From: Patescibacteria group bacterium
GTDB lineage: Bacteria > Patescibacteriota > Minisyncoccia > UBA6257 > HR35
Reading direction: 5' to 3'
Assembly (NCBI GenBank): GCA_030550735.1
Contig: JAUQOT010000002.1
Coordinates: 1 to 36,059, forward strand
Length of the DNA: 36,059 nucleotides
Part shown: one piece after another, positions 10,545 through 35,144 of the stretch
Layout: each line of letters opens with the position of its first letter
How positions within the stretch are numbered: the first letter of the stretch is position 1
Translations under genes and position numbers: made by a program
Notes under the pieces: model-generated
Seen by the model: only the letters and a program-made list of their open reading frames with translations
What the model was told of the DNA's origin: nothing
Database searches by the model: none

Positions 10545-12221
10545 CTATTCATTATTAATTGTTGGATCAACCCAAGATAAATTAGCAAAAAATCTTATTA
10601 TTCCTATCTCTTCCTTATCGTAATTTTCTAAAGCTATACCTATTGTTCTTCCTGGTTTTGTCATTTTCATAGCTACTCCAGGAATATTAGAAGCTGTTAA
10701 GAAATCACCCCTTTTTATCTCACCATTAATTGTTGAAACTTTTACTTTGAAATATCCATAGATACCAAGCGGTTTATAAAAATAAGATTTTTTTATTCCA
10801 GAAGCTCCTTTTTCTTCATTTGTCACAACGCCCATTATGAGAGAACTATAAGGTTTATTAGCTTTCTTTAAAACAAAAGGAGCCTCATCATCTTTTATAG
10901 GATTTTCTAATTCACTAATCATAACCACATCTCCTTCTTCAACATTTTCTTCCATTGGTGCATATTCTGCATCTGAACTACAAGTAGAAAGTGCATTGTA
11001 TTGATTGTGACATACGTGGCGAGTAGAAGGAGTAGAAACTAATATGGTTGCTATTCCAGTATCAGCAATTAAAGAAGTATTTCTAAGATGAATACCGGCA
11101 TCAGTAAATGTTTCAATATATTCATTTGGATTATTTGGGTTAACTATAGTAAATACAGAACCAGGATTCTGGGTGTGAATACCAACTCTACCAGAAGGAG
11201 TTAAAACTAGGGGCTGAATCCAGTTAGAACCGTTATAATACCAAAATGCTAAACTCCCTTGCTGATTACTTAGACTACCTCTATAACCTATATGCCAATA
11301 ATTAACCGTTTCATCTGCTTTTAGATTAAAACCAGAGGCAGAATATTGGTTAGTTAAAGAGCCTTTGACTTGAATAAAACTTCTTACATCTAATTTTGCT
11401 TCCGGTGCCGTCGTCCCGATGCCGACGTTGCCAGATTCAATTACGAAAGGATAGTTTCCACCATCACTACCAAAAAATCCAGAGAAACATTTATACCCAG
11501 AAGGACAAGATTTTACCCAACCGACTACTCCATAAGCCCTATTATATGGTCCGCTTTGCTGCGCTAATACTCCACCCAAATACCAATCAGTTTCAGAACT
11601 GTTTACTAATAAACCGTGAACTCCGTTTCTGTAGCCACTGACACTTGTTGCTCCTAATTCTTTAACTGTGCCTTGTATGTTATATAATCTTTTTGTATTA
11701 TCAACCGGAGTAGGATCATAAACCATCAATCCAAAAGCATCATTATTAGCTCCACTACCCCATGGTGAATTTATAGGCGAAACAATCGTATCTTCAACAA
11801 CCAATTTTGCTCTTTGTGGATTCGTCGTCCCGATGCCGACGTTGCCACCTGCTGGATTTATTACTAAATTATTGGGTCCAAAAGCCGAAGAGACACCTTG
11901 TATAAATGGCGCTCCGCCATATGCATCTTCATTACCAATATAGACACCAGTTTTAGAGCCACTAATATATCCAAATACAGATTGTCCAGCCACATGCAAT
12001 TTTTGACCCGGTGCTGTCGTCCCGATGCCAACGCTTCCGGATGTAACTAAAAAATTACCAGAACTAACTCTAGTAGTTGTAATTATATTTAAACCGCTTG
12101 AATCAGTTTGAAGAACGCCACCACCTTGAGGTGGATTTTGAGTTGGATTTACCCAAGCATAAATTAAATAAATACTACTTAAACTTAATCCTAATATAAA
12201 ACCCCAAAAAATTTTTTTCAT
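10545..12221 (-). CDS. Secreted or surface-anchored repeat protein with four (G/S)xVGI(G/H)T motifs (tail-fibre-like fold family), function unknown
   Basis: N-terminal hydrophobic anchor MKKIFWGFILGLSLSSIYLIYAW followed by NPTQNPPQGGG. Repeats SGSVGIGTTAPGQKLHV, GGNVGIGTTNPQRAKLVV, SGNVGIGTTAPEAKLDV and SGRVGIHTQNPGSVFTI. Composition is G/S/N/T-rich and K/E-poor, unlike its neighbours. Confidence 0.75.
   Translation of the reverse strand: MKKIFWGFILGLSLSSIYLIYAWVNPTQNPPQGGGVLQTDSSGLNIITTTRVSSGNFLVTSGSVGIGTTAPGQKLHVAGQSVFGYISGSKTGVYIGNEDAYGGAPFIQGVSSAFGPNNLVINPAGGNVGIGTTNPQRAKLVVEDTIVSPINSPWGSGANNDAFGLMVYDPTPVDNTKRLYNIQGTVKELGATSVSGYRNGVHGLLVNSSETDWYLGGVLAQQSGPYNRAYGVVGWVKSCPSGYKCFSGFFGSDGGNYPFVIESGNVGIGTTAPEAKLDVRSFIQVKGSLTNQYSASGFNLKADETVNYWHIGYRGSLSNQQGSLAFWYYNGSNWIQPLVLTPSGRVGIHTQNPGSVFTIVNPNNPNEYIETFTDAGIHLRNTSLIADTGIATILVSTPSTRHVCHNQYNALSTCSSDAEYAPMEENVEEGDVVMISELENPIKDDEAPFVLKKANKPYSSLIMGVVTNEEKGASGIKKSYFYKPLGIYGYFKVKVSTINGEIKRGDFLTASNIPGVAMKMTKPGRTIGIALENYDKEEIGIIRFFANLSWVDPTINNE
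11402..11432 (-). repeat. GC-rich intragenic repeat copy A (ccggtgccgtcgtcccgatgccgacgttgcc)
   Basis: Read directly from the sequence. The 23-nt core gtcgtcccgatgccgacgttgcc is identical to copy B. It encodes GNVGIGTTAPE on the minus strand. Confidence 0.9.
11824..11846 (-). repeat. GC-rich intragenic repeat copy B (gtcgtcccgatgccgacgttgcc)
   Basis: 23/23 identity to the copy A core. It encodes GNVGIGTT. Confidence 0.9.
12008..12038 (-). repeat. GC-rich intragenic repeat copy C (ccggtgctgtcgtcccgatgccaacgcttcc)
   Basis: 27/31 identity to copy A by hand alignment. It encodes GSVGIGTTAPG. Confidence 0.85.
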
Positions 12222-12332: not shown

Positions 12333-15300
12333 ATGGTTAATAAAGCTTCCGAAGATTATAAAGCAGAACACATTCAAGTTTTAGAAGGAATAGAAGCTGT
12401 CAGAAAAAGACCAGGAATGTATATTGGTGGTACAGGAATTGAAGGATTGCATCATTTAATTTGGGAAGTTTTAAATAATTCAGTTGATGAAGCTTTAGCT
12501 GGTTATGCGAAAAACATTGAAGTGGTTATTGAAAATGAAAACAGAGTAAGAATTACTGATGATGGGAGGGGTATTCCAGTTGATATTCATCCTAAAACTA
12601 AAAAATCTGCTCTGGAAACAGTTTTGACAATGCTTCATGCTGGAGGTAAATTTTCTCATAAAGTTTATAAAGTTTCTGGTGGTCTTCATGGAGTTGGAGT
12701 AAGTGTCGTGAACGCTCTTTCTAGATATCTTAAAGCAATTGTTAAAAGAGATGGTTTTGAATGGAAGCAAGAGTATAAAAAGGGAAAACCGATAACCGAG
12801 TTAGAAAAAGGGAAAAAAACAGAAGATACAGGAACAACAATTATTTTTGAACCTGATCCAGAAATTTTTGCCGAAATAAAATTTGACAGACAAAAAATTT
12901 TAGAATATATAAGACACCAAGCCTATCTTACACCCAGCGTAAGGTTTAATTTTCAAGACAAAAGAGAAGATCCACCTTTTGTTTATAGTTTTTATTTCGA
13001 ACAAGGGCTGAAAGTTTTTTTAAAGCATCTTTTAAACGGAAGACATCCTTTATTTGAGGAAATCATTTATATTTCTTCGAAAGGAGAAAATTATGAACTT
13101 GATATTGCCTTTACTTATTTAGAACATCAAGAATCAATTGAATATGTTTTTACTAATAATATTATTAATCCCGAAGGAGGAACCCATCTTTTAGGTTTTC
13201 GAAGTGCTTTAGTTAAATCGTTTACAAAATTAGGAGAAGAACTTGGAGTTTTCAAAAACAAGAGCATTAATTTAACAACAGAAGATATTCGTGGTGGTTT
13301 AGTTTTAGTTTTATCTCTTAGAATTCCTGAACCGCAATTTGAAGGACAAACAAAAGCTAAACTTGGTAATCCTGAAATAAAAAGTTTAGTTGAAAATATC
13401 GTTTCTCAAGAATTGGAAGAATGGTGTCATAAAAACATTGAAAAAACAAAATTAATTTTAAATAGAATTTTAACTAATTTTGAAGCAAGAAAAGCTGCTA
13501 AAGAAGCTAAAGAAGCTGTTTTTAAAAAAAGAATTCAAACTGGATTAACGCTTTCAGGAAAATTAGCTGATTGTTCTTCCAGAAATCCAGAAGAAAGAGA
13601 ACTTTTTATTGTTGAAGGAGAATCAGCTGGTGGTTCAGCGAAACAGGGAAGAGATAGAAAATTTCAAGCAGTTTTACCTCTAAGAGGTAAAATTTTAAAT
13701 GTTGAGAAAGCAAATTTAGTAAAAATTTTTAAATCTGAAGAAATTAGAAACTTAATTATTGCTCTCGGAACAGGTTTGGGAAAAGATTTTAATTTAGAAA
13801 ATCTTCGCTATTCAAAAATAATAATTGCCACTGATGCTGATAGTCTTACTCCAGAAATACCAATCTTAATTTATGACAAAAAAGAAAAACTTTTAAGAAA
13901 AGTTAAAATTGGAGAATTTGTTGAGAGTGATTTAAAAGACACAGAAGATTATCAAGTTGTTGCTTATGACTTTAAAAAGAAGAAATTTGTTTTTCAAGAT
14001 GTTTATCAAACAATTAGACATCCCCTAAGAAATTCTCTTTATGAAATTAAAACTCAATATGGTTATACAATTAAAGTTACTGCTGATCATAGCCTCTTTG
14101 TTTATCGTGATGGTAAATTTATAACTTTGCCAACCCATAAAATTAAAAAAGGAGATAGATTAATCTTCCCTCTTGTTTTACCTATTCCTCGGAGAAAAAT
14201 TGTTTTAAATTTAGAAGAAGAAATTAAAAATTCAGAAGAAAAAGAAAGGATTCAAGTTAAATTCAAAACTTATAAATATTTAACTCCTAATTCTTGGGTT
14301 AATTTAAGCTACAGTGATTTTCAAAAATTAAAAGAAAAAAGAATAATGGCTGGAATTTCGAAAGAAAAGATGGCCCAAGTGTTGAATATTTATCCAGCTA
14401 TTTTGCAACAATGGGAAGAAAAAATTGATAACGTAATGCCCAAATTAGACATTTTTCAAAATTATTTGAAGATTCTCGGTGAAGAAAAAATTTTACAAGA
14501 AGCAGAGTTTTTTGTACCTTTAACAGAACTCAAAGAAGAAATAAAAAATGCTGAATATTATTTAAATAATCATTCACGAAAAATTCAAACAAAATTTGTT
14601 TTAGATGAAAAATTAGCTTATCTTTTAGGTTGGTTCATTGGTGGTGGCTGTTTTTCACCGGAGAAAGAAAACCTAAATAGGTTTATGATTTGTTTAGGTC
14701 AAGATAAAGAATTCTATTTAAGAAGAATTAAAAAAATAATTAAAGATGTTTTAAGGGCAAAACCGATTTTAGAAAAAAGAAAAGAAAGCATTAATCTACA
14801 TTTTCACTCTTATGAATTTAAGTTAATTCTTAAAAAATTAAATCTTCTTGGTAAAAAATCTTTTGAAAAATTTATTCCCCCAGAAATTTTAACTTCGCCC
14901 AAAAGTGTTCAAAAAGCATTTCTGAAAGGTTATTTAGAAAGTGATGGCAGTATAATAGCTAAAAACAGAGATTATAAAATTTATTTCACAACTACCTCTC
15001 GAGATCTTCAAGAGGATTTAATTATTCTTTTTAGAAGTTTCGGCATTTTTCCTCGTATTAATTCAAGATTTTCTAAAGATCATTATCGGAAAGATGGAGT
15101 TTTAATTTCAAGTCAAAAACCTAGATATGTTATCACTATTTCTGGAATTGAAAATTTAAGAAAAATTAGAGATATTTGGAAAAATCATAAAAATGCTAAA
15201 AAATTAGAAGAATATCTTAAAAGATTTAGCAAGAATTATAGAAATAAAAAGTTTCTTAAATATTTGGGACCCAATAAGACAATTCTTCTACCAATTGTTT

Positions 15301-15815
15301 CCATTAAAAAAATTAAACCAGATAATCCCTTTGTTTATGATATTTCAGTAAAAGTTAATGAAAATTTTTTAGCTTCACCAGCCGGAATTTTAGTTCATAA
15401 TACTGATGGTTCTCATATTAGAACCCTTCTTTTAACTCTTTTTTATCGTTATTTAAGACCTATTATTGAAAATGGACATCTTTATATAGCTCAACCGCCT
15501 TTGTATAAAATTCAAAAAGGAAAAGAAATTTTTTATGCTTACAGCGATAATGAAAAAGAAGAAATTTTGAAAAATTTAGCAAAAAAAGGAAAAGAAAATA
15601 TTAATGTTCAGCGTTACAAAGGTTTAGGAGAAATGAACCCTGAAGAACTTTGGGAAACAACTCTAAATCCCCAAAAAAGAGTTTTAAAACAAGTTACAAT
15701 TAAAGATGCTGAAGAGGCGGATAGATTATTTACAATTTTAATGGGCGGAGATGTTGAACCACGAAGAAAATTTATTGAAAAATACGCTATCCAGGTTAAA
15801 GATCTTGATATTTAA
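12333..15815 (+). CDS. gyrB: DNA gyrase subunit B precursor interrupted by an in-frame intein (640-aa extein plus 520-aa intein)
   Basis: GHKL ATPase motifs (VRKRPGMYIGGT, NNSVDEALAG, DDGRGIPVD, GGLHGVGVSVVNALS), QTK loop EGQTKAKLGN and Toprim FIVEGESAGGSAKQGRDR. The motif IIIATDAD is separated from TDGSHIRTLLLTLFYRY by 520 aa. Confidence 0.92.
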   Translation: MVNKASEDYKAEHIQVLEGIEAVRKRPGMYIGGTGIEGLHHLIWEVLNNSVDEALAGYAKNIEVVIENENRVRITDDGRGIPVDIHPKTKKSALETVLTMLHAGGKFSHKVYKVSGGLHGVGVSVVNALSRYLKAIVKRDGFEWKQEYKKGKPITELEKGKKTEDTGTTIIFEPDPEIFAEIKFDRQKILEYIRHQAYLTPSVRFNFQDKREDPPFVYSFYFEQGLKVFLKHLLNGRHPLFEEIIYISSKGENYELDIAFTYLEHQESIEYVFTNNIINPEGGTHLLGFRSALVKSFTKLGEELGVFKNKSINLTTEDIRGGLVLVLSLRIPEPQFEGQTKAKLGNPEIKSLVENIVSQELEEWCHKNIEKTKLILNRILTNFEARKAAKEAKEAVFKKRIQTGLTLSGKLADCSSRNPEERELFIVEGESAGGSAKQGRDRKFQAVLPLRGKILNVEKANLVKIFKSEEIRNLIIALGTGLGKDFNLENLRYSKIIIATDADSLTPEIPILIYDKKEKLLRKVKIGEFVESDLKDTEDYQVVAYDFKKKKFVFQDVYQTIRHPLRNSLYEIKTQYGYTIKVTADHSLFVYRDGKFITLPTHKIKKGDRLIFPLVLPIPRRKIVLNLEEEIKNSEEKERIQVKFKTYKYLTPNSWVNLSYSDFQKLKEKRIMAGISKEKMAQVLNIYPAILQQWEEKIDNVMPKLDIFQNYLKILGEEKILQEAEFFVPLTELKEEIKNAEYYLNNHSRKIQTKFVLDEKLAYLLGWFIGGGCFSPEKENLNRFMICLGQDKEFYLRRIKKIIKDVLRAKPILEKRKESINLHFHSYEFKLILKKLNLLGKKSFEKFIPPEILTSPKSVQKAFLKGYLESDGSIIAKNRDYKIYFTTTSRDLQEDLIILFRSFGIFPRINSRFSKDHYRKDGVLISSQKPRYVITISGIENLRKIRDIWKNHKNAKKLEEYLKRFSKNYRNKKFLKYLGPNKTILLPIVSIKKIKPDNPFVYDISVKVNENFLASPAGILVHNTDGSHIRTLLLTLFYRYLRPIIENGHLYIAQPPLYKIQKGKEIFYAYSDNEKEEILKNLAKKGKENINVQRYKGLGEMNPEELWETTLNPQKRVLKQVTIKDAEEADRLFTILMGGDVEPRRKFIEKYAIQVKDLDI
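13842..15401 (+). mobile_element. GyrB intein with LAGLIDADG homing-endonuclease domain
   Basis: Starts with Ser1 (SLTPEIPILIYD). Block B TADH (IKVTADHSLFV), blocks F/G NPFVYDISVKVNENFLASPAGILVHN followed by +1 Thr. LAGLIDADG-like motifs LAYLLGWFIGGGCF and FLKGYLESDGSI. Length is 1560 nt, in frame. Confidence 0.88.
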
Positions 15816-18971: not shown

Positions 18972-20228
18972 ATGATTGATATAAAAGATCTTTTGAAAAA
19001 TCCTGAAAAATATAAAGAAGGATTAAGGTTAAGAGGTTGGGAAGATGTTTCAATTGTTGACGAAATAGTTTCTTTAAAAGAGAAGATAAATAGATTAATT
19101 GAAGAGAGAGATAATATCAGAGCTTTGATTAATAAAGTTTCCAAAACCAAACCAAGCGATGAAATAATTGAAGAAATAAGAGAAAAAAAGAAGGAATTAA
19201 AGGAAATTGAAACAAAAATAGAAGAATTAGAAAAAATTTTTGAGGAAAAAATTGATTTAATTCCTAATCTTCCAGCCCCAGATGTTCCAAAGGGTAAAGA
19301 TGAAAATGATAATGTTGTTTTGCGAACTTGGGGTGAAATACCAAAATTTGATTTCGAAGTAAAAGATCATTTAGATTTGGGTAAAGAGTACGATTTAATT
19401 GATACTGATAAGGCTGGAGAAGTTGCTGGTTCACGATTTTATTATCTTAAAAACGAGGTTGTTCTTTTAGAAATTGCTTTGATTAAGTTTGTTTTTGATA
19501 CAGTTTTACCTTATGGTTTTATACCAATTATTCCACCTTATTTTATTAAAGAAAAATATTATCGAGGTATGGGAAGAATAACCGGAGCTGATAGGGAAGA
19601 AAGATACTATTTAGAAAAGGATGATCTATTTTTAATAGGAAGTGCTGAACATACAATCGGCCCTTATCATGCTAACGAAATTTTAGATGAGGAAGAGTTG
19701 CCTAAAAGATATCTAGGTTTTTCTCCTTGTTTTCGGCGTGAAGCTGGAAGTTACGGTAAAGATGTTAAAGGAATTTTGAGAACTCATCAATTTGAGAAAG
19801 TAGAAATGTTTAGTTTCACTTTACCGGAGAAATCAGAAGAAGAACATAATTTTCTCCTTTCTTTAGAAGAAAAAATTGTCCAAGCCCTTAAATTACCTTA
19901 TCGAGTTGTTTTTATTTGTACGGGTGATATGGGAAGAACAGATTATAAGCAATATGATATTGAAGTTTGGTTTCCTGGACAAAATAAATATCGAGAAACC
20001 CATTCTTGTTCAAATACGACTGATTATCAAGCTCGAGGAATAAATGCTAGATTTAGGAGAAAAAAAGGTTCCGTTGAATATCTTCATATGTTAAATGCAA
20101 CTGCCTTAGCCATTGGAAGAGCAATTGCCGCCATTTTAGAAAATTATCAAAGAAAAGATTATATTTTAATTCCGGAAGTTCTTGTTCCTTATCTAGGTTT
20201 TGAAAAAATAGAAAGGAAATTTAAATGA
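18972..20228 (+). CDS. serS: Serine--tRNA ligase
   Basis: N-terminal coiled-coil arm. Class II motifs FSPCFRREAGSYGKDVKGILRTHQFEKVE and NATALAIGRAIAAILENYQ. Confidence 0.9.
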   Translation: MIDIKDLLKNPEKYKEGLRLRGWEDVSIVDEIVSLKEKINRLIEERDNIRALINKVSKTKPSDEIIEEIREKKKELKEIETKIEELEKIFEEKIDLIPNLPAPDVPKGKDENDNVVLRTWGEIPKFDFEVKDHLDLGKEYDLIDTDKAGEVAGSRFYYLKNEVVLLEIALIKFVFDTVLPYGFIPIIPPYFIKEKYYRGMGRITGADREERYYLEKDDLFLIGSAEHTIGPYHANEILDEEELPKRYLGFSPCFRREAGSYGKDVKGILRTHQFEKVEMFSFTLPEKSEEEHNFLLSLEEKIVQALKLPYRVVFICTGDMGRTDYKQYDIEVWFPGQNKYRETHSCSNTTDYQARGINARFRRKKGSVEYLHMLNATALAIGRAIAAILENYQRKDYILIPEVLVPYLGFEKIERKFK

Positions 20229-20626
20229 AAAAATATGAGTTTTTAGGGCATACAGCTGATTTTAGAATAAGAGTTTATGGTAGAAATTTTAAAGAAATTA
20301 TTCAAAACTCCCTTTTAGCTTTAAAATCTTTTTGGAAACCAAAATTGACCAAAGAGAAAGAAGAAATATTTTTAGATTTAGAAAATAAAAATCCAGCTTT
20401 TCTTTTGATTGATTTTCTTTCTGAAGTTCTTTCCCAGACATATATTAAAAAAGCAATTTTTTTAAATTTTAACGAAGAAGAGCTTAGCTTAAATAAAATT
20501 AAAGGAAAACTAAATGGTTTCCGGTTTAATTTACTCAAAAAAGATATTAAAGCAATTACTTATCATCAAGCAAATTTCTATGAAAACAAGGGATTATTTA
20601 TTTTTGAGTTTATTATCGATATTTAG
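20225..20626 (+). CDS. Archease
   Basis: N-terminal YEFLGHTADFRIRVYG and C-terminal IKAITYHQ...FIIDI are archease hallmarks. ATGA overlap with serS. Confidence 0.85.
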   Translation: MKKYEFLGHTADFRIRVYGRNFKEIIQNSLLALKSFWKPKLTKEKEEIFLDLENKNPAFLLIDFLSEVLSQTYIKKAIFLNFNEEELSLNKIKGKLNGFRFNLLKKDIKAITYHQANFYENKGLFIFEFIIDI

Positions 20627-28682: not shown

Positions 28683-29180
28683 ATGAATTTGATTGATTTT
28701 TACTATTACTTTAATTTGTTTCGAGATATTTTAATTTTAATTCAAATTCTCTTTGTTTTATCTTTGATCTTTCGAAGAATGAAAGAAAATGTTAATACAG
28801 GTTTAATTATATATGGTAAATTTATTTTTCTAACTCTTGTTATTTCTTTTCTTCTTTTTTTCTTTAAAAATACCTTTCCTTCTTTAAGACCAATAAGCTA
28901 TTTGGTTCCAAACCTAATTTTGAATGATAGTTTTCCTTCAGGCCATGCCCTTTTTTCGTTTAGTTATACATTTTTTGTTATGCCTCTAAGTTTTAGATTT
29001 TTTATTTTCTCTCTAATAATTTCTGTTCTGATTAGTATTTTTAGTATTATTTCTTTTTCTCATTTTTTAATAGATATTATTTTTAGCATCTTTTTAGCTA
29101 TATTTATAGCTATTATTTCTCAAGAGATTTTATATTTTTTCCATAGGTTCTATGTTCACTATTTTAAGAAAAAAACCTAA
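28683..29180 (+). CDS. PAP2-family lipid phosphate phosphatase
   Basis: Motifs KNTFPSLRP (Kx6RP), PSGH and SHFLID (HxxxD), embedded in TM segments. Confidence 0.65.
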   Translation: MNLIDFYYYFNLFRDILILIQILFVLSLIFRRMKENVNTGLIIYGKFIFLTLVISFLLFFFKNTFPSLRPISYLVPNLILNDSFPSGHALFSFSYTFFVMPLSFRFFIFSLIISVLISIFSIISFSHFLIDIIFSIFLAIFIAIISQEILYFFHRFYVHYFKKKT

Positions 29181-30761
29181 AACATCTCTTAGGGTTTTTA
29201 CTAAAAAGAGATCTCTTCTATCAATTTTTTCTTCTTGGATTATTCTTCTTTTTTCATAAAAGTGGTGAATTTCTTTAGCAACATTTAAAAGATAATCATA
29301 ATAAAGATTTGGTTTTAATTCTCTATAGATAATAATACTTAAATCTTTAAATTGATGAAGAATTCTAATTAAATTTTTAATTTCCTCTTCTTTAATATAA
29401 AATTTTGCTAATTTTTGGGGATCAAATTTTTCTGGAATTTTATAACCCCTTTCTTCAGCTCTTTTAAGAATATTATTCAATCTTGCATAAGCATATTGAA
29501 GATACCAAAAAGGATTTTCTTCAGAAACTTTTTGAGCAATTTCCATATCAAAGTTTAAAGTTGTTTCCGGTGTCATACTTAAAAACATTATTCGAACTAC
29601 TCCTGGATTAATAACTGAAAGCAAATCATCAATTGTTACAAAAACTCCTTTTCTTTTTGACATTTTTAATATTTTTTCTTCCTTTTTAAGATGAACATGT
29701 TGATAAGTAATTATTTTTATTTGTGATTCTTTTATTTTTAACACCTCTAAAGCTTTTTTGAGTCTTCTAATATGATCATGATGATCGGCTCCCAGAATAT
29801 TTACTCCTATTTTAAATTTTCTTTCAAAAAACTTATTATAATGATAAAGGATATCAGAAAAAAAATAAGTTGGTTCACCATTAGCTCTTATTAGAAATTC
29901 ATCTTTTATTTCTCCAATTTTGGTTAATTTTAAAATTAAAGCTCCGTCTTTTTCTTCGATAAGAAACATTTTTTTATATAACTCGATAATCTTTTCTAAT
30001 TTATTTTTATCTTGATAGAGACTTTTTTCAGAAAAATAATTGTCAAATGATGTACCAAGTTTTTTTAATGATGGTTTAATATAATTTTCTAAAACATAAT
30101 TACAAGCCATTTCTTCAATTTTTTTTAGATCATTTATGTTTTCAATTTTTTCTTTTAGATCTCTTGCTATTTCTTTGATGTAATCTCCTTTATAAAAATT
30201 TTCTTCTTCGGGAATTTTCCCTAAATTAGCTAAAATCGATTTAACCAAAATTTCAACTTGTGTTCCTCTATCATTTACATAATATTCTTTTGTTACTCTA
30301 AAACCTAAAATTTTAAGAAAATTAGCTAAAGTGTCTCCTAAAACGGCACCACGAATATTGCCTATATGCAGGGGTCCTGTTGGATTGGCAGAAACATATT
30401 CAACAATTATTTTTCTTTTTCTTCCTATATAGCTATAAAAATGTTTTTCGCCTTTTTTAAAAATATTTCTCAAAACCTTGAATAAAACATAATCCGAAAG
30501 ATGAAAGTTTAAATAATTATTAACTATTTCAATTTTTTTAAAATGATTTTTAAGTTTTTTATTAATTTTTTCTAAAATAATCTCTTTTTCATTAGGAGCA
30601 AATTTATCAAGAAGAAAAAGAAGATTAGTTGAATAATCTCCACGATCTAGATTTTTGACTATAAAAAATTGAAGTTTATTCTCTATGTTTTTCCATGAAG
30701 TCTTTTTTAAGTTCTTTCTTAAAATTATTTTTATTTTTCTTTCTAAATCAATAAGTTGCAT
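29130..30761 (-). CDS. argS: Arginine--tRNA ligase
   Basis: SANPTGPLHIGNIRGA (HIGH), KMSKRKG (KMSKS-like) and a C-terminal anticodon-binding domain. Confidence 0.9.
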   Translation of the reverse strand: MQLIDLERKIKIILRKNLKKTSWKNIENKLQFFIVKNLDRGDYSTNLLFLLDKFAPNEKEIILEKINKKLKNHFKKIEIVNNYLNFHLSDYVLFKVLRNIFKKGEKHFYSYIGRKRKIIVEYVSANPTGPLHIGNIRGAVLGDTLANFLKILGFRVTKEYYVNDRGTQVEILVKSILANLGKIPEEENFYKGDYIKEIARDLKEKIENINDLKKIEEMACNYVLENYIKPSLKKLGTSFDNYFSEKSLYQDKNKLEKIIELYKKMFLIEEKDGALILKLTKIGEIKDEFLIRANGEPTYFFSDILYHYNKFFERKFKIGVNILGADHHDHIRRLKKALEVLKIKESQIKIITYQHVHLKKEEKILKMSKRKGVFVTIDDLLSVINPGVVRIMFLSMTPETTLNFDMEIAQKVSEENPFWYLQYAYARLNNILKRAEERGYKIPEKFDPQKLAKFYIKEEEIKNLIRILHQFKDLSIIIYRELKPNLYYDYLLNVAKEIHHFYEKRRIIQEEKIDRRDLFLVKTLRDVLGFFLKIVNIEPMEKI

Positions 30762-33700
30762 TTTTAAAAATTTTATTGAAAAGTTCTTCTAAAATTGTAA
30801 GATAATTAGCTTCGCCACTTTCAACTTTGTCCATATTCTTTTCTAAAATCCTTGTAAATTCCTCATCAATATATTGAAAGTATTTTTCTTTTAGATATTG
30901 ATAAATCGTTTTGCCCCAACTTGTTGGAATTAAATAACCAGATTTATTTAAAATATATTTTCTTTCAAGCAAAGTTGAAATAAAAGTTGCATAAGTTGAG
31001 GGTCTGCCCAAACCTCTTTTTTTCATTTCTTCTATTAATTCACCCTGAGTATAATAAAATTCTTTAGGAACCCTTTGAATTCTTAGATTTTTCACAATGA
31101 ATTCGCCCTCTTCCAATTTTGTTTCTTTAAGATGATAATAAAATTCTAAATAACCCCTTTCTTTAATTTTTTTAATTTCTTCAAAATCTTTTTCTAAATC
31201 TTCTAGATAAATTTTACCATTTATTTTAATAATTTTTGCTTCTTTTACTTGAGAAGCAAGAAAACGATTAACAATTAAACCGTAAAGTTTTAAATGATTG
31301 CTTGTTAAACTTCGATCACCTAAAACAATCATTTCTTCAATTAATTCATCAACAGTTAAAGCTTTTGTTGGTCTTATGCCTTCATGTGTTCCTGGGGAAC
31401 CAAAATGATTGGGTTTAAAAATTTCTATTTTGTTTAAATTTTCTAAAAATTCTCGAGCAACTCTTAAGCCAAAATCAGATATATAAGTTGAATCGGTTCG
31501 ATGATAAGTAATCAAACCTCTTTCAAACAAATCTTGAGCCAATTTCATTGTTTGGTCGGCTCCGAATTTAAAAAAATTAAAAGCATCTTTTAAAAGATTA
31601 CTCGTATCATAAGGCGGTAGAGGTTTTCTAATTTCTTCTTCCTCTTTATTGATTTTTATTCTTACTTTAAGTTCTTTATTTTTAAATTTTTCTCTTATCT
31701 TCTTTACAAAATTTTTATTATCTGTTTCTAATCTAATTAAAGAATCATCAAAACCAACTCTTAAATAATAAATTTTATTCTTAACTTTTTCGGCTCTTTC
31801 TAGAATCCAGCCCAAAATAGGTGTTTGAACTCTACCAGCAGAAAGGTTTAAATTTTTAAAATGATTTTGAATTTTTTCACTTAAAAAAAAGCCAACCCAC
31901 CTATCAGAAATCCTTCGTAAAAGCTGTGCTTCAACTAAGTAAGTATTGATTTCGCGTGGTTCTTTTATTCTTTTCAAAAACTCCTCGCGAGTAATTTCAT
32001 GAAGTTCGATTCTTAAAATATTCTTATTATATGGATAAAGATAATTAAAGAGATCGAAAGCTATTTTTTCACCTTCGGCATCAGGATCAGAAGCTAAATA
32101 AATTTTATCAACCTCCAAGGCTAATTTTTTGAGACCTTCAATTAACTCCTCTTTGGTATAAATTTCTTTACTTCCACAAACGGGACAAAAATTTTCGGTG
32201 TAATTTAGATGACGATCGCAACTTCGACATATTTTTATAAACTGAAAAATAGGTATAAACTGACTATCAATTTTTTTGACCCCATAATAGCCATCTGAGT
32301 AAGTTAAATCAACAAAATGTCCCATTGTTGCGCAAATATTTAAATGTAAATTACCTAAAGAAATTTCATAGAGAGTTAATCCGTTTTTAATTCTTCTTGC
32401 TGGTTTACCAAAAAAATTAGCTATTGTTCTTGCTTTGGTTGGTGATTCAACAATAACAAGAGCGGTTTCAATTGGATCTTTAAATTCTATCTCTTTTCCT
32501 TCGATTACTTTCTTAACAATATTTCTATCTTCGTCAATTTTCTTTAAAATATCTTCCAAATTAACTTCATTTACCTCTTTAAATTTAATTTGATAGCCTA
32601 AGATTTTTAACTTATTGGCTAAATGTTTAAGAAGTTTTTCATTCTCGGCTAATATTAAACTTAATCCCTTAGTTAACCCTAGGGGATAAAGTCTCGAAGT
32701 TCTTCCTGAAGCTTGAAGATAACCACGTGGATCAGAAACAATAAGAATCATTTCGCTGTCTCTTCTTTCTAATATAAGCAATGGATGTGTTTTAATTTTT
32801 TCAATAAAATCTTCTTGTTTTATAAGTTCTTCCCAGAAATTTTTTATAGTTTCTAACTTAGTTTTTAAAGATTCATTTTCTTTAATTGTATCTTCTTTAA
32901 GATAAGATATTTTCTTTAAAAAATTAATCTGTTTGTCAATAAATTTTTTTTCTTTTTCATCCAAAATTTCTCTTAAGGTTAAAGAAATTAAAAAAAGTTG
33001 GAGAGGGCTTAAAGATAATTTGAGAGATAAAATAAATTTGGGAATTCCAACAAAAAGCGCATATCTTACTTTTTGAGGTAAATCAATTCCTCGGGTAAGA
33101 GGATTTCTGATATTAGAAAAACCAACAATCACCTGAATTTTATTTTCTAAGAAGGCTTCAATGTTTTTATTATTAAAATTTTCGTAAGAAACAGCGTTAA
33201 TGCCGTTTTTATTTAGAAAGTGAACATAATTTTTAAGATCATCACGATTGTATTCTGAGCTTAAATAAACAAATCCTCCTTCTCCTAATTTTTTTATCCA
33301 TTTTATTGATTCTTCCCAAAGATTTTCCTTATTTACTAATTTATAAAGTTCTTCGATGTTTCTTAAATAGGTTGATGAAATACCAATCTCAAAACCTAAA
33401 AGTTCCTTAAAAAGATTTATTCTCTTTGTTTTTGGAGTTAGGGTTGCTGAAGCAGCAATAATAATTCCTTTTTCTTTTTTGTTTATTTCAATTTTTAGAT
33501 TATTTTTTTCTTTGTTTTTTCTTTTTAATTCAATGATTTCCAAAGCTTGATTTATTTCTTCCTCGGTGATTTTTGCTAGTTTTAAGACTTTGTCAATATT
33601 TTTAGGTTGTCTAATTAAAGAATCGGCATCATCAATAAAAACTAAATCAAAATTTTTAGGAATAATATCAAAATTTTTGTGGAGAAAATTAGAAGTTGTA

Positions 33701-34230
33701 ACTAAAATATCAAAATCTTCATTTAAAAGTTTTTCTTTATCTTTTGGTTTTTTTATTACAAGAATTTTTTTTGAAGTTTGAAAAATTTTTAATTTTTTTT
33801 CTATTTCATTAAGGAGAATTTTGGACGGAACAAGATAATAAACTTTTCCAGGAAGAAAATGAGAAATAGCAATTCCAAAAGTCGTTTTTCCAATACCAGT
33901 TGGTGCAATAATTGTAAAAGATTCGTGGCGAAAAACTCTTTTTGCCCAATAAAGATTTAATTTGAATGGTTTTGTTTTAAGATTTTTTTCAAAGAAGTTT
34001 ATATATTCATTAAGTTTTTTTAAAAGAAGATAATCTTCTTCAAAAAATTTTAAAAATTTAGGATTAATCTCTTCTTTTTTTATTACTTCTAAGTTCTTGT
34101 TAAAAAATAGATAATCTTGTTCACATATTCCATAGTTATAAATTTCTTCTAAGGAAGCCCTATTTTTATCAATCGGACAAATATCTAAATAAATTATTGG
34201 AAGAGCGTTTATTTTTTTTCTTTTTTGCAT
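30748..34230 (-). CDS. rgy: Reverse gyrase (helicase-like domain fused to type IA topoisomerase)
   Basis: Helicase-like motifs APTGIGKTT, FIDDADS, SAT and QASGRTSR. These are followed by VIVESPTKARTIANFFG (Toprim), CRSCDRHLNYTENFCPVCG, DPDAEGEKIA and the active-site motif GLITYHRTDST. 1160 aa. Confidence 0.88.
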   Translation of the reverse strand: MQKRKKINALPIIYLDICPIDKNRASLEEIYNYGICEQDYLFFNKNLEVIKKEEINPKFLKFFEEDYLLLKKLNEYINFFEKNLKTKPFKLNLYWAKRVFRHESFTIIAPTGIGKTTFGIAISHFLPGKVYYLVPSKILLNEIEKKLKIFQTSKKILVIKKPKDKEKLLNEDFDILVTTSNFLHKNFDIIPKNFDLVFIDDADSLIRQPKNIDKVLKLAKITEEEINQALEIIELKRKNKEKNNLKIEINKKEKGIIIAASATLTPKTKRINLFKELLGFEIGISSTYLRNIEELYKLVNKENLWEESIKWIKKLGEGGFVYLSSEYNRDDLKNYVHFLNKNGINAVSYENFNNKNIEAFLENKIQVIVGFSNIRNPLTRGIDLPQKVRYALFVGIPKFILSLKLSLSPLQLFLISLTLREILDEKEKKFIDKQINFLKKISYLKEDTIKENESLKTKLETIKNFWEELIKQEDFIEKIKTHPLLILERRDSEMILIVSDPRGYLQASGRTSRLYPLGLTKGLSLILAENEKLLKHLANKLKILGYQIKFKEVNEVNLEDILKKIDEDRNIVKKVIEGKEIEFKDPIETALVIVESPTKARTIANFFGKPARRIKNGLTLYEISLGNLHLNICATMGHFVDLTYSDGYYGVKKIDSQFIPIFQFIKICRSCDRHLNYTENFCPVCGSKEIYTKEELIEGLKKLALEVDKIYLASDPDAEGEKIAFDLFNYLYPYNKNILRIELHEITREEFLKRIKEPREINTYLVEAQLLRRISDRWVGFFLSEKIQNHFKNLNLSAGRVQTPILGWILERAEKVKNKIYYLRVGFDDSLIRLETDNKNFVKKIREKFKNKELKVRIKINKEEEEIRKPLPPYDTSNLLKDAFNFFKFGADQTMKLAQDLFERGLITYHRTDSTYISDFGLRVAREFLENLNKIEIFKPNHFGSPGTHEGIRPTKALTVDELIEEMIVLGDRSLTSNHLKLYGLIVNRFLASQVKEAKIIKINGKIYLEDLEKDFEEIKKIKERGYLEFYYHLKETKLEEGEFIVKNLRIQRVPKEFYYTQGELIEEMKKRGLGRPSTYATFISTLLERKYILNKSGYLIPTSWGKTIYQYLKEKYFQYIDEEFTRILEKNMDKVESGEANYLTILEELFNKIFKNATY

Positions 34231-34307: not shown

Positions 34308-35144
34308 ATGCCACGTGGCCGTAAAAAGTCTCAATTGGAAGGTAGTCTGGTTTTTCAAGATCCTTATCATCATCAAAATTTGGAATTGAAAATTATACCT
34401 ATTGAAAACTTATTCGTTGTCCCTCACCAAAGAAAACCAAGCGCTTATCACGTTAAACATCTTGTTAGTTCAATAGAAAGAATAGGTTTTATTGTTCCTA
34501 TAATTGTTATTGCTAGTCAAGACAATAATTATATGATTATTGATGGACAACATCGGTTTTTAGCAGCTAAAGAATTAGGAATAAGAGAACTTCCAGCTAT
34601 TGTTGTTCCTGAAAGATTAGCTCAGCTTATGATGAACTTTAATATTGAAAAAGAATTAAATATCAGAGAAAAATCTTATGTTGCGTTAGCAATTTATCGA
34701 CAACATCTCGAAGCTAATCCAGAAATGTTAGAATCAGATCCAGAACTAGTTGATGCTATTGAACAAGCTTATTATGTTACTTTAGGTATTGGTTATGAAA
34801 AAGTTGAAAAACTTTCTGGTAGTTCTTTTGAGCCAATTCTAAAAAAATGTGATTTCTTCGTTGATGAAAAACTTTCTGAAGCTTTAAAAATTAGAGAGCA
34901 GCGAGCTGAAAAAGTTATTCAGGCAAATAATTTAGTTAAAGAAATTGCTCAAAAACTTAAGGAAATGGATAAGTGGCATCCTTATGTTTATCAACAAATA
35001 ATTTCATGGTCAAATCCTTATAAGAGAAAAAGATTACCAACAGAATTTGACGATCTCTTTAATTCTATAATTGAGAATCTTGAAAAAGCTGTTCAAAATC
35101 CAACTCTTGTTTTAAGCGAAGTATTGGAGGAAGAAAGTTTTTAA
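34308..35144 (+). CDS. ParB/Srx-fold N-terminal-domain protein with a DGQHR motif (DndB-like?)
   Basis: IPIENLFVVPHQRKP...IIDGQHRFLAAKELGIRELPAIVVP follows the ParB N-domain pattern, with GERR replaced by GQHR. The C-terminal half is unassigned. Confidence 0.65.
   Translation: MPRGRKKSQLEGSLVFQDPYHHQNLELKIIPIENLFVVPHQRKPSAYHVKHLVSSIERIGFIVPIIVIASQDNNYMIIDGQHRFLAAKELGIRELPAIVVPERLAQLMMNFNIEKELNIREKSYVALAIYRQHLEANPEMLESDPELVDAIEQAYYVTLGIGYEKVEKLSGSSFEPILKKCDFFVDEKLSEALKIREQRAEKVIQANNLVKEIAQKLKEMDKWHPYVYQQIISWSNPYKRKRLPTEFDDLFNSIIENLEKAVQNPTLVLSEVLEEESF

What the first reader, a model, noticed from the sequence alone, without database searches (positions are those of the whole stretch)
30748..34230. 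Intact reverse gyrase wired into a housekeeping operon of an AT-rich, streamlined CPR-like bacterium
The 1160-aa ORF is a colinear fusion of two modules. The first is an SF2 helicase-like module (APTGIGKTT, FIDDADS, SAT, QASGRTSR). The second is a type IA topoisomerase (VIVESPTKARTIANFFG, DPDAEGEKIA, zinc ribbon CRSCDRHLNYTENFCPVCG, catalytic-Tyr motif GLITYHRTDST). This architecture is diagnostic of reverse gyrase, the positive-supercoiling enzyme regarded as the hallmark of (hyper)thermophiles. Here it sits among bacterial markers (trmD, secE-nusG-rplK, rplI, clpP/clpB) in a genome that looks like an ultrasmall episymbiont, with tiny spacers, a pruned AlaRS and pilus genes. I do not know reverse gyrase to be an expected component of that kind of organism. 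Its stop overlaps the argS start by 14 nt and its composition matches its neighbours, so it looks resident rather than a fresh island. The usual N-terminal zinc finger appears to be missing, with no CxxC pair in the first ~60 residues. gyrB is in the same window, so opposing supercoiling activities probably coexist.
Basis: partly seen in the sequence, partly recalled or inferred. Interest (0 to 1): 0.75.

Follow-up and report, generated by a model that had tools for sequence, protein, structure and literature searches.

The report
Reverse gyrase of thermophilic CPR bacteria
This is a genuine, complete reverse gyrase gene that is a long-standing resident of a lineage of tiny hot-spring Patescibacteria (CPR); that is expected for a heat-loving organism, and the one unusual feature is that two of the four cysteines of its N-terminal zinc finger are replaced by aspartates across the whole lineage.

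Summary
The 1160-aa ORF at 30748..34230 (-) is a bona fide reverse gyrase. It scores 1111 bits on the equivalog model TIGR01054 (cutoff 472) and is colinear over model positions 3-1169 of 1172. All helicase and Toprim motifs and the catalytic Tyr909 are intact, and an AlphaFold model superposes on T. maritima reverse gyrase (TM 0.80/0.84).

The host is a Patescibacteria (Parcubacteria/Minisyncoccia) bacterium, and its proteome composition looks thermophilic. The gene is resident. Its tetranucleotide profile matches the rest of the window (r = 0.991). The rgy-argS pair and up to 19 kb of surrounding gene order recur in independent MAGs whose enzymes are 58-70% identical.

The "missing" N-terminal zinc finger is not deleted. 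Its scaffold is kept in register, but the ligands are C-x2-D-x14-C-x2-D instead of C-x2-C-x14-C-x2-C. This CDCD pattern marks one well-supported clade, with two non-CPR sequences at its base. That topology suggests an old transfer into thermophilic CPR, followed by vertical descent.

Relatives are already annotated as reverse gyrase in public databases, so the occurrence is not new. The Asp-for-Cys variant was not described in any paper I found. Overall this is a largely ordinary finding with one modestly interesting structural twist.

The parts
30748..34230 (-). rgy, reverse gyrase, 1160 aa
   Evidence: TIGR01054 at 1111.5 bits (cutoff 471.7), residues 11-1154 against model positions 3-1169 of 1172. 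PDB 1gl9 at 1e-187 and 4ddt at 3e-175. AF2 model pLDDT 88, Foldseek TM 0.80/0.84 to 7fsf.
34096..34200 (-). Zn1-like Gag-knuckle module (residues 11-45) with ligand positions C18, D21, C36, D39 (C-x2-D-x14-C-x2-D)
   Evidence: MAFFT puts ICPID under the canonical MCPNC and GICEQD under LPCESC. The quartet is CDCD in 45 of 57 clade members against CCCC in 62 of 63 others. pLDDT is 90-94, with a beta-hairpin at 13-26 and helices at 27-33 and 37-43.
32476..34053 (-). SF2 helicase-like module (residues ~60-585): Walker A APTGIGKTT (109-117), motif II FIDDADS (198-204), SAT (261-263), motif VI QASGRTSR (506-513)
   Evidence: Pfam DEAD and ResIII hits. The motifs are invariant or near-invariant in 120 homologues. 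The T. maritima helicase-domain structures 3oiy and 3p4x align to residues 74-398.
32746..33024 (-). Latch-type insertion in H2 (residues ~403-495), between motif V and motif VI
   Evidence: About 100 extra residues lie at the position of the T. maritima latch (Gly389-Pro460 in PMC3553957). They are modelled as helices 409-480 plus strands 486-499 at pLDDT 82-92. The boundaries are inferred.
31993..32460 (-). Toprim domain (residues 591-746) with E595 (VESP) and D715-x-D717-x-E719 (DPDAEGE)
   Evidence: Pfam PF01751 at 1.5e-20. The acidic residues are invariant in 120 sequences.
32176..32229 (-). Zn2 zinc ribbon inserted in Toprim: C668, C671, C682, C685
   Evidence: CCCC in 57 of 57 clade members. 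This matches the published Zn2 consensus C-x2-C/H-x10-C-x2-C (PMC4117796).
30790..31950 (-). Type IA topoisomerase core (residues 761-1147)
   Evidence: Pfam PF01131 at 1.7e-81, profile positions 2-410 of 411.
31504..31506 (-). Catalytic tyrosine Y909 in GLITYHRTDS
   Evidence: Tyr in 120 of 120 aligned homologues. It aligns with the active-site motif of 1gl9.
29130..30761 (-). argS, arginine-tRNA ligase, 14-nt overlap with the rgy stop; the second gene of the rgy-argS pair
   Evidence: TIGR00456 at 312 bits. The overlap sequence was read directly. The same rgy-argS junction occurs in HR35 (14-nt overlap) and in a 556-kb Parcubacteria contig (4-nt overlap).
34308..35144 (+). ParB/Srx-fold gene (278 aa), divergent from rgy across a 77-bp spacer; a conserved neighbour of rgy in CPR loci
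   Evidence: Pfam ParB_N. The best PDB hit is the SbnI free serine kinase at 2e-6. It lies next to rgy in L082, L002, L084 and L037.
12333..15815 (+). gyrB (context: the opposing supercoiling enzyme), interrupted by an intein at nt 13842..15398
   Evidence: NF004189 at 881 bits. Pfam Intein_splicing and LAGLIDADG_3. Insert boundaries come from alignment to intein-free relatives.

Best explanation
The ORF encodes a functional reverse gyrase of a thermophilic, small-genome Patescibacteria (Parcubacteria/Minisyncoccia) bacterium from a geothermal habitat.

Inferred mechanism, from the studied enzymes: the N-terminal SF2 helicase-like module binds and hydrolyses ATP and, with its latch insertion, transiently unwinds DNA. 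The C-terminal type IA topoisomerase cleaves one strand through Tyr909, with Toprim acidic residues holding Mg2+, and passes the other strand. Each cycle raises the linking number by one, which protects the 28%-GC chromosome from thermal denaturation and damage.

The gene is co-transcribed and probably translationally coupled with argS. It has been inherited vertically within this CPR lineage after an old acquisition from another thermophilic bacterium.

Its N-terminal Gag-knuckle module is retained but uses Cys-Asp-Cys-Asp instead of four Cys. I infer that it still folds, probably around a metal ion, and still bridges the helicase and Toprim/Zn2 parts as in T. maritima.

Shown: sequence, architecture, motifs, predicted fold, host assignment, residency and the clade-wide ligand swap. 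Inferred: enzymatic activity, metal binding, growth temperature and the direction of transfer.
For: Family and architecture: TIGR01054 at 1111.5 bits against a cutoff of 471.7, colinear over model positions 3-1169 of 1172. Pfam gives DEAD/ResIII, Toprim and Topoisom_bac in that order. PDB reverse gyrases match at 1e-187 and 3e-175. AF2 gives pLDDT 88 and pTM 0.82. Foldseek TM is 0.80/0.84 to T. maritima and 0.75/0.85 to A. fulgidus over about 1130-1180 columns.

Catalytic residues: Walker A, DDxD, SAT, QxxGRxxR, Toprim E and DxDxE, and Tyr909 are all conserved.

Host: the best named GyrB N-extein hits are Parcubacteria, Patescibacteria and Minisyncoccia. They include the GyrB of the same 556-kb and 634-kb contigs that carry clade reverse gyrases (74% and 66% GyrB identity against 58% and 52% reverse gyrase identity, the same rank order).

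Residency: GC3 is 0.157 against about 0.155 for the neighbours. Tetranucleotide r is 0.991 against 0.965-0.991 for other segments. An independent Logan contig has an identical arrangement. 19 kb of identical gene order occurs in bacterium HR35 at 69% identity. rgy-argS-PAP2-murJ is conserved at 58% identity.

Thermophily: IVYWREL is 0.449 for the window and 0.439-0.454 for clade loci. That lies inside the range of 51 reverse-gyrase-bearing loci (0.421-0.508) and above the median of topA-only loci (0.411).

Zn1: it aligns in register with the published spacing. The module is modelled at pLDDT 90-94 with the published hairpin-plus-helix topology. The CDCD clade has NJ bootstrap support of 96-100%.
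Against: No activity was measured. In T. maritima, mutating Zn1 lowers positive supercoiling, and changing two Cys to Ala in both fingers abolishes it (PMC3553957 and PMC4117796), so the Cys-to-Asp changes could in principle weaken or alter the activity.

Growth temperature is inferred from amino-acid composition only. tRNA G+C (61%) did not discriminate, because a Clostridia control locus also gave 60%. Metadata for the source sample SRR21619488 were not found.

One likely source of close relatives, if GCA_0260045xx belongs to the Katase study as I suspect but could not verify, was a 52 C sediment fed by 84.5 C water, where predicted OGTs were 25-63 C. The host may therefore be a moderate thermophile rather than a hyperthermophile.

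The trees are neighbour-joining with a simple distance correction, not maximum likelihood. The direction of transfer rests on only two or three basal sequences.
Confidence: 0.8

Rival explanations
1. The enzyme is a reverse gyrase by descent, but the Cys-to-Asp changes in Zn1 have altered its activity. It might act mainly as an ATP-dependent relaxase, a DNA renaturase or chaperone, or a repair factor rather than an efficient positive supercoiler. Alternatively it might use a different metal or no metal, which would define a functionally distinct subfamily.
For: Zn1 mutation lowers supercoiling in T. maritima, and Zn1 deletion in T. tengcongensis abolishes supercoiling but not relaxation. The CDCD pattern is clade-wide and absent from 109 of 134 diverse representatives, which are CCCC. 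Cys-to-Asp needs two nucleotide changes per codon, and it happened at both knuckles, so selection for Asp is more likely than drift (genetic code; inference). Variants at these sites are mostly other metal ligands: His at position 3 in 2 sequences and at position 4 in 6.
Against: Everything else needed for supercoiling is intact: the latch-type insertion, Zn2, all ATPase motifs and the Tyr. Asp and His are competent zinc ligands; for example, the last ligand of LIM domains can be Cys, His or Asp (my own knowledge). The module is modelled with high confidence in the canonical topology. One subclade (CTSA/CTSI, 3 sequences) has lost the site altogether yet keeps an otherwise intact enzyme, which suggests the metal site is not critical here.
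Confidence: 0.12
2. The gene sits on a chimeric or mis-binned contig and really belongs to a classical thermophile such as Aquificota or Thermotogota.
For: Reverse gyrase is best known from such organisms. The nearest non-clade homologues are Aquificota, Thermosulfidibacter and Thermodesulfovibrio.
Against: Those homologues are only 38-43% identical. The gene's composition is indistinguishable from its neighbours. It overlaps argS by 14 nt. The same 16-19 kb arrangement recurs in an independent Logan assembly, in HR35 and in an NCBI Patescibacteria MAG.
Confidence: 0.01
3. The gene is a recent horizontally acquired island in this particular genome.
For: Reverse gyrase is known to move horizontally among thermophiles (Catchpole and Forterre 2019, PMC6878951). 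Non-CPR sequences (P0052, P0056, P0381) branch at the base of the clade.
Against: There are no mobile-element genes at the locus. The composition is fully ameliorated. Synteny is conserved across relatives down to 58% identity. Divergence in reverse gyrase follows the same rank order as divergence in GyrB. So a transfer, if any, predates the radiation of this lineage.
Confidence: 0.03
4. The host is a mesophile, and reverse gyrase has a role here that is unrelated to temperature.
For: No sample temperature could be retrieved for the window's source. CPR bacteria are mostly known from mesophilic groundwater. tRNA G+C was uninformative.
Against: IVYWREL at 0.449 and (E+K)/(Q+H) at 4.8 are in the thermophile range, as in all four other clade loci. 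The co-retrieved relatives come from MAG sets dominated by hot-spring and vent organisms. A Paceibacteria MAG from a Kerguelen hot spring is among the MAGs reported with reverse gyrase.
Confidence: 0.04

Closest known systems
Thermotoga maritima reverse gyrase (PDB 4DDT/4DDU/7FSF)
   Same: Same single-chain order: Zn1 module, H1, H2 with latch, Toprim with Zn2, topo IA core. Foldseek TM 0.80/0.84 over about 1180 columns at 31% identity. Same ATPase motifs, Toprim acidic residues and catalytic Tyr. Zn2 has four Cys. The Zn1 ligand spacing x2/x14/x2 is the same as Cys11/14/29/32. It also coexists with DNA gyrase in a bacterium (my own knowledge of T. maritima; gyrB here).
   Different: Zn1 ligands are C-D-C-D instead of C-C-C-C. 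The N-terminal 58 residues are too divergent to align by phmmer. The host is a roughly 0.5-0.7 Mb CPR bacterium at 28% GC rather than a free-living Thermotogota.
Archaeoglobus fulgidus reverse gyrase (PDB 1GKU/1GL9)
   Same: Best sequence match in the PDB (1e-187), colinear in two blocks covering residues 59-439 and 493-1154. TM 0.75/0.85.
   Different: It is archaeal and about 100 residues shorter, with a different latch fold according to PMC3553957. Its zinc fingers are disordered in the crystal.
Aquificota, Thermosulfidibacter and Thermodesulfovibrio reverse gyrases (e.g. Phorcysia thermohydrogeniphila, P0057)
   Same: These are the nearest named non-clade homologues, at 38-43% identity over 93-99% of the length. 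They have the same domain set.
   Different: They carry the Pfam PF17915 N-terminal zinc-finger hit and a CCCC quartet. The CPR clade lacks the Pfam hit and has CDCD.
Reverse gyrases of ultrasmall thermophilic DPANN archaea (e.g. Micrarchaeota ARM-1, 814-kb complete genome; Nanoarchaeum equitans split enzyme, from my own knowledge)
   Same: They set a precedent: strongly reduced, host-dependent cells from hot habitats keep reverse gyrase (L054 and L045).
   Different: They are archaeal, only 33-40% identical, and not of the CDCD type. N. equitans encodes the enzyme as two polypeptides, whereas here it is one.
Bacterial topoisomerase I (TopA)
   Same: The C-terminal half (residues 591-1153) matches topA_bact (306 bits) and E. 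coli and T. maritima TopA structures.
   Different: The score is below the TopA cutoff of 456. TopA lacks the N-terminal helicase module, and the best model by far is reverse gyrase.

Membership tests
Reverse gyrase (NCBIfam TIGR01054 equivalog) | Single polypeptide, colinear with the family model, scoring above the curated cutoff | tested here: met
   1111.5 bits against a cutoff of 471.7; residues 11-1154 on model positions 3-1169 of 1172; one stretch.
Reverse gyrase (NCBIfam TIGR01054 equivalog) | N-terminal SF2 helicase-like ATPase with Walker A, motif II (DDxD), SAT and motif VI (QxxGRxxR) | tested here: met
   APTGIGKTT, FIDDADS, SAT and QASGRTSR are present and invariant or near-invariant across 120 homologues.
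Reverse gyrase (NCBIfam TIGR01054 equivalog) | Latch insertion within helicase subdomain H2 | tested here: met
   An insertion of about 100 residues (~403-495) lies between motifs V and VI, modelled at pLDDT 82-92. The whole chain superposes on latch-containing 4ddt and 7fsf. The latch fold itself was not compared separately.
Reverse gyrase (NCBIfam TIGR01054 equivalog) | C-terminal type IA topoisomerase with Toprim acidic residues and a catalytic tyrosine | tested here: met
   PF01751 and PF01131. E595, D715, D717, E719 and Y909 are conserved in 120 of 120 sequences.
Reverse gyrase (NCBIfam TIGR01054 equivalog) | N-terminal Zn1 Gag-knuckle zinc finger, Cys-x2-Cys-x13,14-Cys-x2,7-Cys (present in most, not all, reverse gyrases) | tested here: not met
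   The sequence is Cys18-x2-Asp21-x14-Cys36-x2-Asp39. There is no PF17915 hit in the window protein or in 55 clade clusters. The scaffold and spacing are retained. Metal binding is unknown.
Reverse gyrase (NCBIfam TIGR01054 equivalog) | Zn2 zinc ribbon inserted in Toprim (variable among reverse gyrases) | tested here: met
   C668, C671, C682 and C685; CCCC in 57 of 57 clade members.
Reverse gyrase (NCBIfam TIGR01054 equivalog) | ATP-dependent positive supercoiling of DNA | not testable with these tools
   This needs recombinant enzyme and 2D chloroquine gels.
Reverse gyrase (NCBIfam TIGR01054 equivalog) | Occurrence restricted to thermophiles and hyperthermophiles | tested here: inconclusive
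   Composition proxies are thermophile-like: IVYWREL 0.449 and (E+K)/(Q+H) 4.8, within the range of reverse-gyrase-bearing loci. No sample temperature was available, and tRNA GC was uninformative.
Host: Patescibacteria / CPR (Parcubacteria = Minisyncoccia) | Housekeeping markers are closest to Patescibacteria genomes | tested here: met
   All named hits among the top ~100 GyrB N-extein matches are Parcubacteria, Patescibacteria or Minisyncoccia (63-80% identity band), apart from one labelled Aenigmatarchaeota. The reverse gyrase clade is labelled likewise. Taxonomy of Minisyncoccia was checked.
Host: Patescibacteria / CPR (Parcubacteria = Minisyncoccia) | Shared gene order with recognised Patescibacteria MAGs | tested here: met
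   L002 (Patescibacteria group bacterium ERB_C1_2), L082 (HR35) and L083 (Parcubacteria, 556-kb contig) share the rgy-argS block.
Host: Patescibacteria / CPR (Parcubacteria = Minisyncoccia) | Small genome with reduced metabolism | tested here: inconclusive
   The window is about 94% coding and almost entirely information-processing plus pilus genes. Relatives sit on 556-kb and 634-kb contigs. The window's own genome size is unknown.
Host: Patescibacteria / CPR (Parcubacteria = Minisyncoccia) | Placement by concatenated ribosomal proteins or 16S rRNA | not tested
   Only L9 and L11 are in the window, and no rRNA was found.
Bacterial topoisomerase I (TopA) | Score above the TopA cutoff and no helicase module | tested here: not met
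   TIGR01051 scores 306 against a cutoff of 456 and covers only residues 591-1153.

The most novel reading that the evidence does not exclude
The Cys-Asp-Cys-Asp Zn1 module defines a distinct reverse gyrase subfamily, found in thermophilic Parcubacteria plus a few other bacteria. In it the N-terminal finger has been deliberately re-ligated, either to a mixed Cys2Asp2 metal site or to a metal-free knuckle. This would have measurable consequences for metal dependence, redox or thermal robustness, or the balance between positive supercoiling and relaxation. It would then be a natural experiment on the still 'enigmatic' role of the reverse gyrase zinc fingers, and a marker of a single old transfer of thermoadaptation into CPR bacteria.
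Probability: 0.25. Interest if true: 0.5.

Novelty: new member of a known kind. Interest (0 to 1): 0.33.

Why it matters
Reverse gyrase is the one gene used as a presence/absence marker of life at high temperature, including in reconstructions of LUCA and of the bacterial and archaeal ancestors (PMC6878951, PMC11383801, PMC13473441). CPR bacteria are often discussed as a deep or fast-evolving bacterial lineage, yet they are absent from the reference reverse gyrase phylogeny.

This window shows three things. A coherent thermophilic Parcubacteria lineage carries the enzyme as a stable, operon-embedded core gene. Its enzyme is nested among bacterial sequences, with non-CPR forms at the base, which points to acquisition rather than ancient inheritance. 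Even genomes of about 0.5-0.7 Mb keep both gyrase and reverse gyrase.

The clade-wide Cys-to-Asp swap offers a ready-made natural variant for testing what Zn1 does. Beyond that, the finding is confirmatory rather than surprising.

Tried and rejected
(1) tRNA G+C as a thermometer: the window's tRNAs are 61% GC against 28.5% for the window, but two tRNAs in a Clostridia control locus gave 60%, so I dropped it.

(2) Promoter and terminator scan of 28.6-35.2 kb: 32 promoter-like sites against 34.8 expected, and 2 terminators against 2.0 expected, so it was uninformative in this AT-rich DNA.

(3) phmmer of the N-terminal 126 residues against the PDB: alignments start only at residue 59-74, so Zn1 correspondence had to come from the multiple alignment instead.

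Only two clade loci came back, so I obtained synteny through the look-up of encoding contigs instead.

(5) Search for sample metadata (SRR21619488, DRR101367, GCA_026004535, HR35, ERB_C1_2): nothing useful. The Katase hot-spring paper probably describes the BPJG, BPJI and BPIS assemblies, but its text gives only project accessions, so the link is unverified.

(6) Literature on reverse gyrase in CPR, using five term combinations: there is no explicit description, only an implicit one in the Kerguelen MAG survey.

(7) Chimera or contaminant and recent-island hypotheses: rejected on composition and synteny.

(8) ORF 5094-6647 as the missing C-terminal half of AlaRS: no Pfam, NCBIfam or PDB similarity, so it stays open.

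Full report
**1. Observation**

All eight quoted motif strings are present. The TGA stop lies inside the first codons of the downstream argS (ATGCAACTTATTGA), a 14-nt overlap. The first 60 residues hold only two cysteines, C18 and C36, and no CxxC.

The neighbours are as described:
- a type IV pilus ATPase and platform protein
- lysS
- a 426-aa alaS consisting of the catalytic domain only
- a KH protein, trmD, folD and polX
- gyrB, clpP, serS and rplI
- clpB, secE-nusG-rplK, a MurJ-like flippase and argS
- seven tRNAs

G+C is about 28% along the whole window.

**2. What the protein is**

- The NCBIfam equivalog model for reverse gyrase (TIGR01054) matches at 1111.5 bits against a curated cutoff of 471.7. 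It matches in one stretch, from residues 11-1154 onto model positions 3-1169 of 1172.
- Pfam finds DEAD/ResIII (about 100-268), Toprim (591-746) and Topoisom_bac (761-1147) in that order.
- The best solved structures are the A. fulgidus (1e-187) and T. maritima (3e-175) reverse gyrases.
- In an alignment of 120 homologues, Walker A, the DDxD motif, SAT, QxxGRxxR, the Toprim Glu and DxDxE, and the catalytic Tyr (Y909) are invariant or nearly so.
- An AlphaFold2 model built on a 50-sequence alignment has mean pLDDT 88 and pTM 0.82.
- That model superposes over its full length on T. maritima reverse gyrase (TM 0.80/0.84, about 1180 columns) and on the A. fulgidus enzyme (0.75/0.85). TopA and Topo III structures match only the C-terminal half.
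- An insertion of about 100 residues between helicase motifs V and VI occupies the place of the latch (T. maritima latch position from PMC3553957).

On sequence and predicted structure, this is an intact reverse gyrase.

**3. The N-terminal "missing" zinc finger**

The published Zn1 is a Gag-knuckle. In T. maritima, a beta-hairpin carries Cys11 and Cys14, and a short helix or loop carries Cys29 and Cys32. The family consensus is Cys-x2-Cys-x13,14-Cys-x2,7-Cys (PMC3553957 and PMC4117796).

In the multiple alignment, the window's I-C18-P-I-D21 sits under the canonical M-C-P-N-C, and G-I-C36-E-Q-D39 sits under L-P-C-E-S-C. The x14 spacer is the same. So the module is not deleted. The second Cys of each knuckle is Asp.

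Ligand quartets across the alignment:

| Group | Quartet | Count |
|---|---|---|
| Window's clade (57 sequences) | CDCD | 45 |
| | CDCH | 4 |
| | CDHD | 2 |
| | CKCH | 2 |
| | CDCS | 1 |
| | CTSA or CTSI | 3 |
| Remaining homologues (63 sequences) | CCCC | 62 |

Zn2 (C668, C671, C682, C685) is CCCC in all 57 clade members. None of the clade clusters has the Pfam PF17915 hit that the Aquificota-type enzymes carry.

The AF2 model gives residues 11-60 a pLDDT of 90-94. It shows a hairpin (13-26) bearing C18/D21 and a helix starting at C36/D39, which is the published topology.

A search of 1.84 billion 50%-identity representatives collapses the whole clade to one representative (P0054, 1181 bits), followed by a gap to 863 bits. 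Among 134 diverse representatives with an N-terminus:
- 109 are CCCC.
- 9 are CCC-.
- CDCD occurs only in the window, P0054, P0052, P0056 and the fragment P0381.
- P0370 is CDCC and P0247 is CCCH.

My inference is that the module still folds and probably still binds a metal. Cys-to-Asp needs two base changes, it occurred at both knuckles, and the alternative residues are mostly His. That looks like ligand replacement under selection rather than decay. Against a strict requirement for the site, one small subclade has lost three of the four ligands at once.

**4. Whose gene it is**

- The closest homologues, about 55 clusters at 49-70% identity, are named (where named at all) Patescibacteria group bacterium, Candidatus Parcubacteria, Minisyncoccia or bacterium HR35.
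- Two GTDB species representatives of the clade are a Patescibacteria and a Paceibacterota MAG.
- An independent marker, the GyrB N-extein, gives the same answer. The best named hits at 63-74% identity are Parcubacteria, Patescibacteria and Minisyncoccia.
- Those GyrB hits include proteins from the very contigs (556 kb and 634 kb) that carry clade reverse gyrases, with the same rank order of divergence.
- Minisyncoccia is the formal class name within Minisyncoccota, the CPR/Patescibacteria phylum.

**5. Resident or island, chimera or not**

- GC3 of the gene (0.157) equals that of its neighbours.
- Its tetranucleotide profile correlates at r = 0.991 with the rest of the window, as high as any other 3.5-kb segment (0.965-0.991). 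For comparison, a Sulfurihydrogenibium rgy gives 0.90 and the P0052 rgy gives 0.74.
- The identical protein lies on an independent 16-kb Logan contig with the same neighbours.
- In bacterium HR35 (69% identity) the order over 19 kb is pilus genes, parB-like, rgy, argS (again a 14-nt overlap), PAP2, murJ-like, tmk, rplK, nusG, secE, clpB, rplI. This is the window's order plus tmk.
- A 556-kb Parcubacteria contig (58% identity) keeps rgy-argS-PAP2-murJ-tmk.
- A 634-kb contig (52% identity) keeps parB-like next to rgy but has a SET-domain gene in place of argS.

Chimerism and recent acquisition are therefore rejected. The gene has been inherited vertically within this lineage.

**6. Origin of the clade**

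- Neighbour-joining trees (Kimura-corrected, 100 bootstraps) recover the CDCD clade at 100%. The CPR-labelled subclade is also recovered at 100%, with P0052 and then P0056 as successive outgroups (83%).
- With extra representatives, the CDCD set including P0381 is recovered at 96%, and the CCCH sequence P0247 is its sister at 100%.
- P0052 lies on a 348-kb, 41%-GC contig among metabolic genes, next to an HSP20 gene. P0056 lies next to lon, dnaG and rpoD in a 35.5%-GC locus. Neither looks like CPR.

The simplest reading is that a variant-Zn1 reverse gyrase arose in other thermophilic bacteria and was transferred once into the ancestor of this Parcubacteria lineage. This rests on distance trees and few basal taxa, so it is tentative.

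**7. Is the host a thermophile?**

- The IVYWREL fraction of the 28 window proteins is 0.448-0.449 (nominal Zeldovich estimate about 85 C), charged-minus-polar is 0.106, and (E+K)/(Q+H) is 4.8.
- The four other clade loci give 0.439-0.454 at 23-30% GC. So the composition is thermophile-like.
- tRNA G+C did not discriminate, and sample metadata were not found.
- A Kerguelen hot-spring survey lists a Paceibacteria MAG among those with reverse gyrase.
- The Katase hot-spring study describes three small Patescibacteria MAGs from a 52 C sediment fed by 84.5 C water. These are probably, though unverifiably, the BPJ* assemblies.

I conclude that the host is a thermophile, with its temperature optimum uncertain (moderate to extreme).

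**8. How it most likely works**

By homology with the studied enzymes (PMC4117796):
1. ATP binding closes the H1/H2 cleft, and with the latch stabilises a small DNA bubble.
2. The type IA module cleaves one strand through Tyr909 and passes the other through the gate.
3. Directionality imposed by the helicase and latch gives a linking-number change of +1 per cycle.

The Zn1-like module would bridge H1 to Toprim and Zn2 near the cleavage site.

Expression is coupled to argS. Promoter scans were uninformative. DNA gyrase is present as well (gyrB), as in T. maritima (my own knowledge), so opposing activities coexisting is normal for thermophilic bacteria. Activity, metal content and temperature optimum are all inferred, not shown.

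**9. Novelty and verdict**

Close relatives are already annotated as reverse gyrase in NCBI and JGI records. DPANN nano-archaea from hot habitats also keep the enzyme. A specialist would therefore not be much surprised that a hot-spring CPR bacterium has it.

However, none of the papers found discusses CPR reverse gyrase. The reference phylogeny does not mention CPR. The clade-wide CDCD Zn1 was not described in any paper I found. I rate it a new member of a known kind with a noteworthy conserved variant in one accessory element, at interest about 0.33.

Noticed in passing
window 12333-15815 (+); intein at nt 13842-15398: gyrB is interrupted by a 519-aa intein (residues 504-1022). It begins with Ser, ends in His-Asn and is followed by Thr. 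It has a LAGLIDADG homing-endonuclease domain and is inserted right after the Toprim ATDAD motif. All 120 best GyrB homologues are about 633 aa and intein-free, so the insertion is specific to this genome or a very narrow lineage. By coincidence the ORF is also 1160 aa.
   Followed up: partly
window 34308-35144 (+); L082 7069-7908, L084 7114-7920, L037 7365-8192: A 278-aa ParB/Srx-fold protein lies next to rgy in four of the five CPR relatives' loci examined. Its best PDB match is the SbnI free serine kinase, with weaker matches to Spo0J, Noc and archaeal SerK. In L037 it accompanies a quite different, 1059-aa reverse gyrase (36% identity). It was not found beside rgy in about 70 non-CPR loci. 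This could be a functional link or simply lineage synteny.
   Followed up: partly
window 3821-5101 and 5094-6647 (+): alaS encodes only the 426-aa catalytic domain (Pfam positions 1-418 of 552). The 517-aa ORF that overlaps its end by 8 nt has no Pfam, NCBIfam or PDB similarity. It could be a very divergent tRNA-binding/editing half of a split AlaRS, or something unrelated.
   Followed up: partly
window 10545-12221 (-): A 558-aa ORF with no family hit is a compositional outlier: 36% GC against about 28%, IVYWREL 0.348, and negative charged-minus-polar. Its segment has the lowest tetranucleotide correlation in the window (0.965). It may be a surface or secreted protein.
   Followed up: no
window 20225-20626 (+): An archease gene (PF01951) is present. 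Archease normally partners the RtcB RNA ligase, and no RtcB is in the window.
   Followed up: no
window 8747-10486 (-): A full-length PolX family DNA polymerase with a PHP exonuclease domain (544 bits) is present. A repair polymerase is a notable thing to retain in such a reduced genome.
   Followed up: no
L037 4137-7316; L021 91-3324: Two MAG contigs labelled 'Candidatus Saccharibacteria' carry reverse gyrases of other types (36-41% identity; the L037 N-terminus is CPVC...C..E). If the labels are right, reverse gyrase may have entered CPR bacteria more than once.
   Followed up: partly
L085 7416-11501: The basal, non-CPR CDCD-type reverse gyrase P0052 sits directly downstream of an HSP20 small heat-shock gene on a 348-kb, 41%-GC contig labelled Deltaproteobacteria.
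   Followed up: no
proteins P0370, P0247, P0381: There are possible intermediates in the Zn1 ligand series: P0247 is CCCH and is sister to the CDCD clade. P0370 is CDCC. P0381 is a CDCD fragment with an Ala/Gly/Arg-rich (high-GC-like) composition.
   Followed up: partly
protein P0104: One homologue is 1663 aa and has intein and homing-endonuclease Pfam hits inside the reverse gyrase, so it is an intein-bearing reverse gyrase.
   Followed up: no
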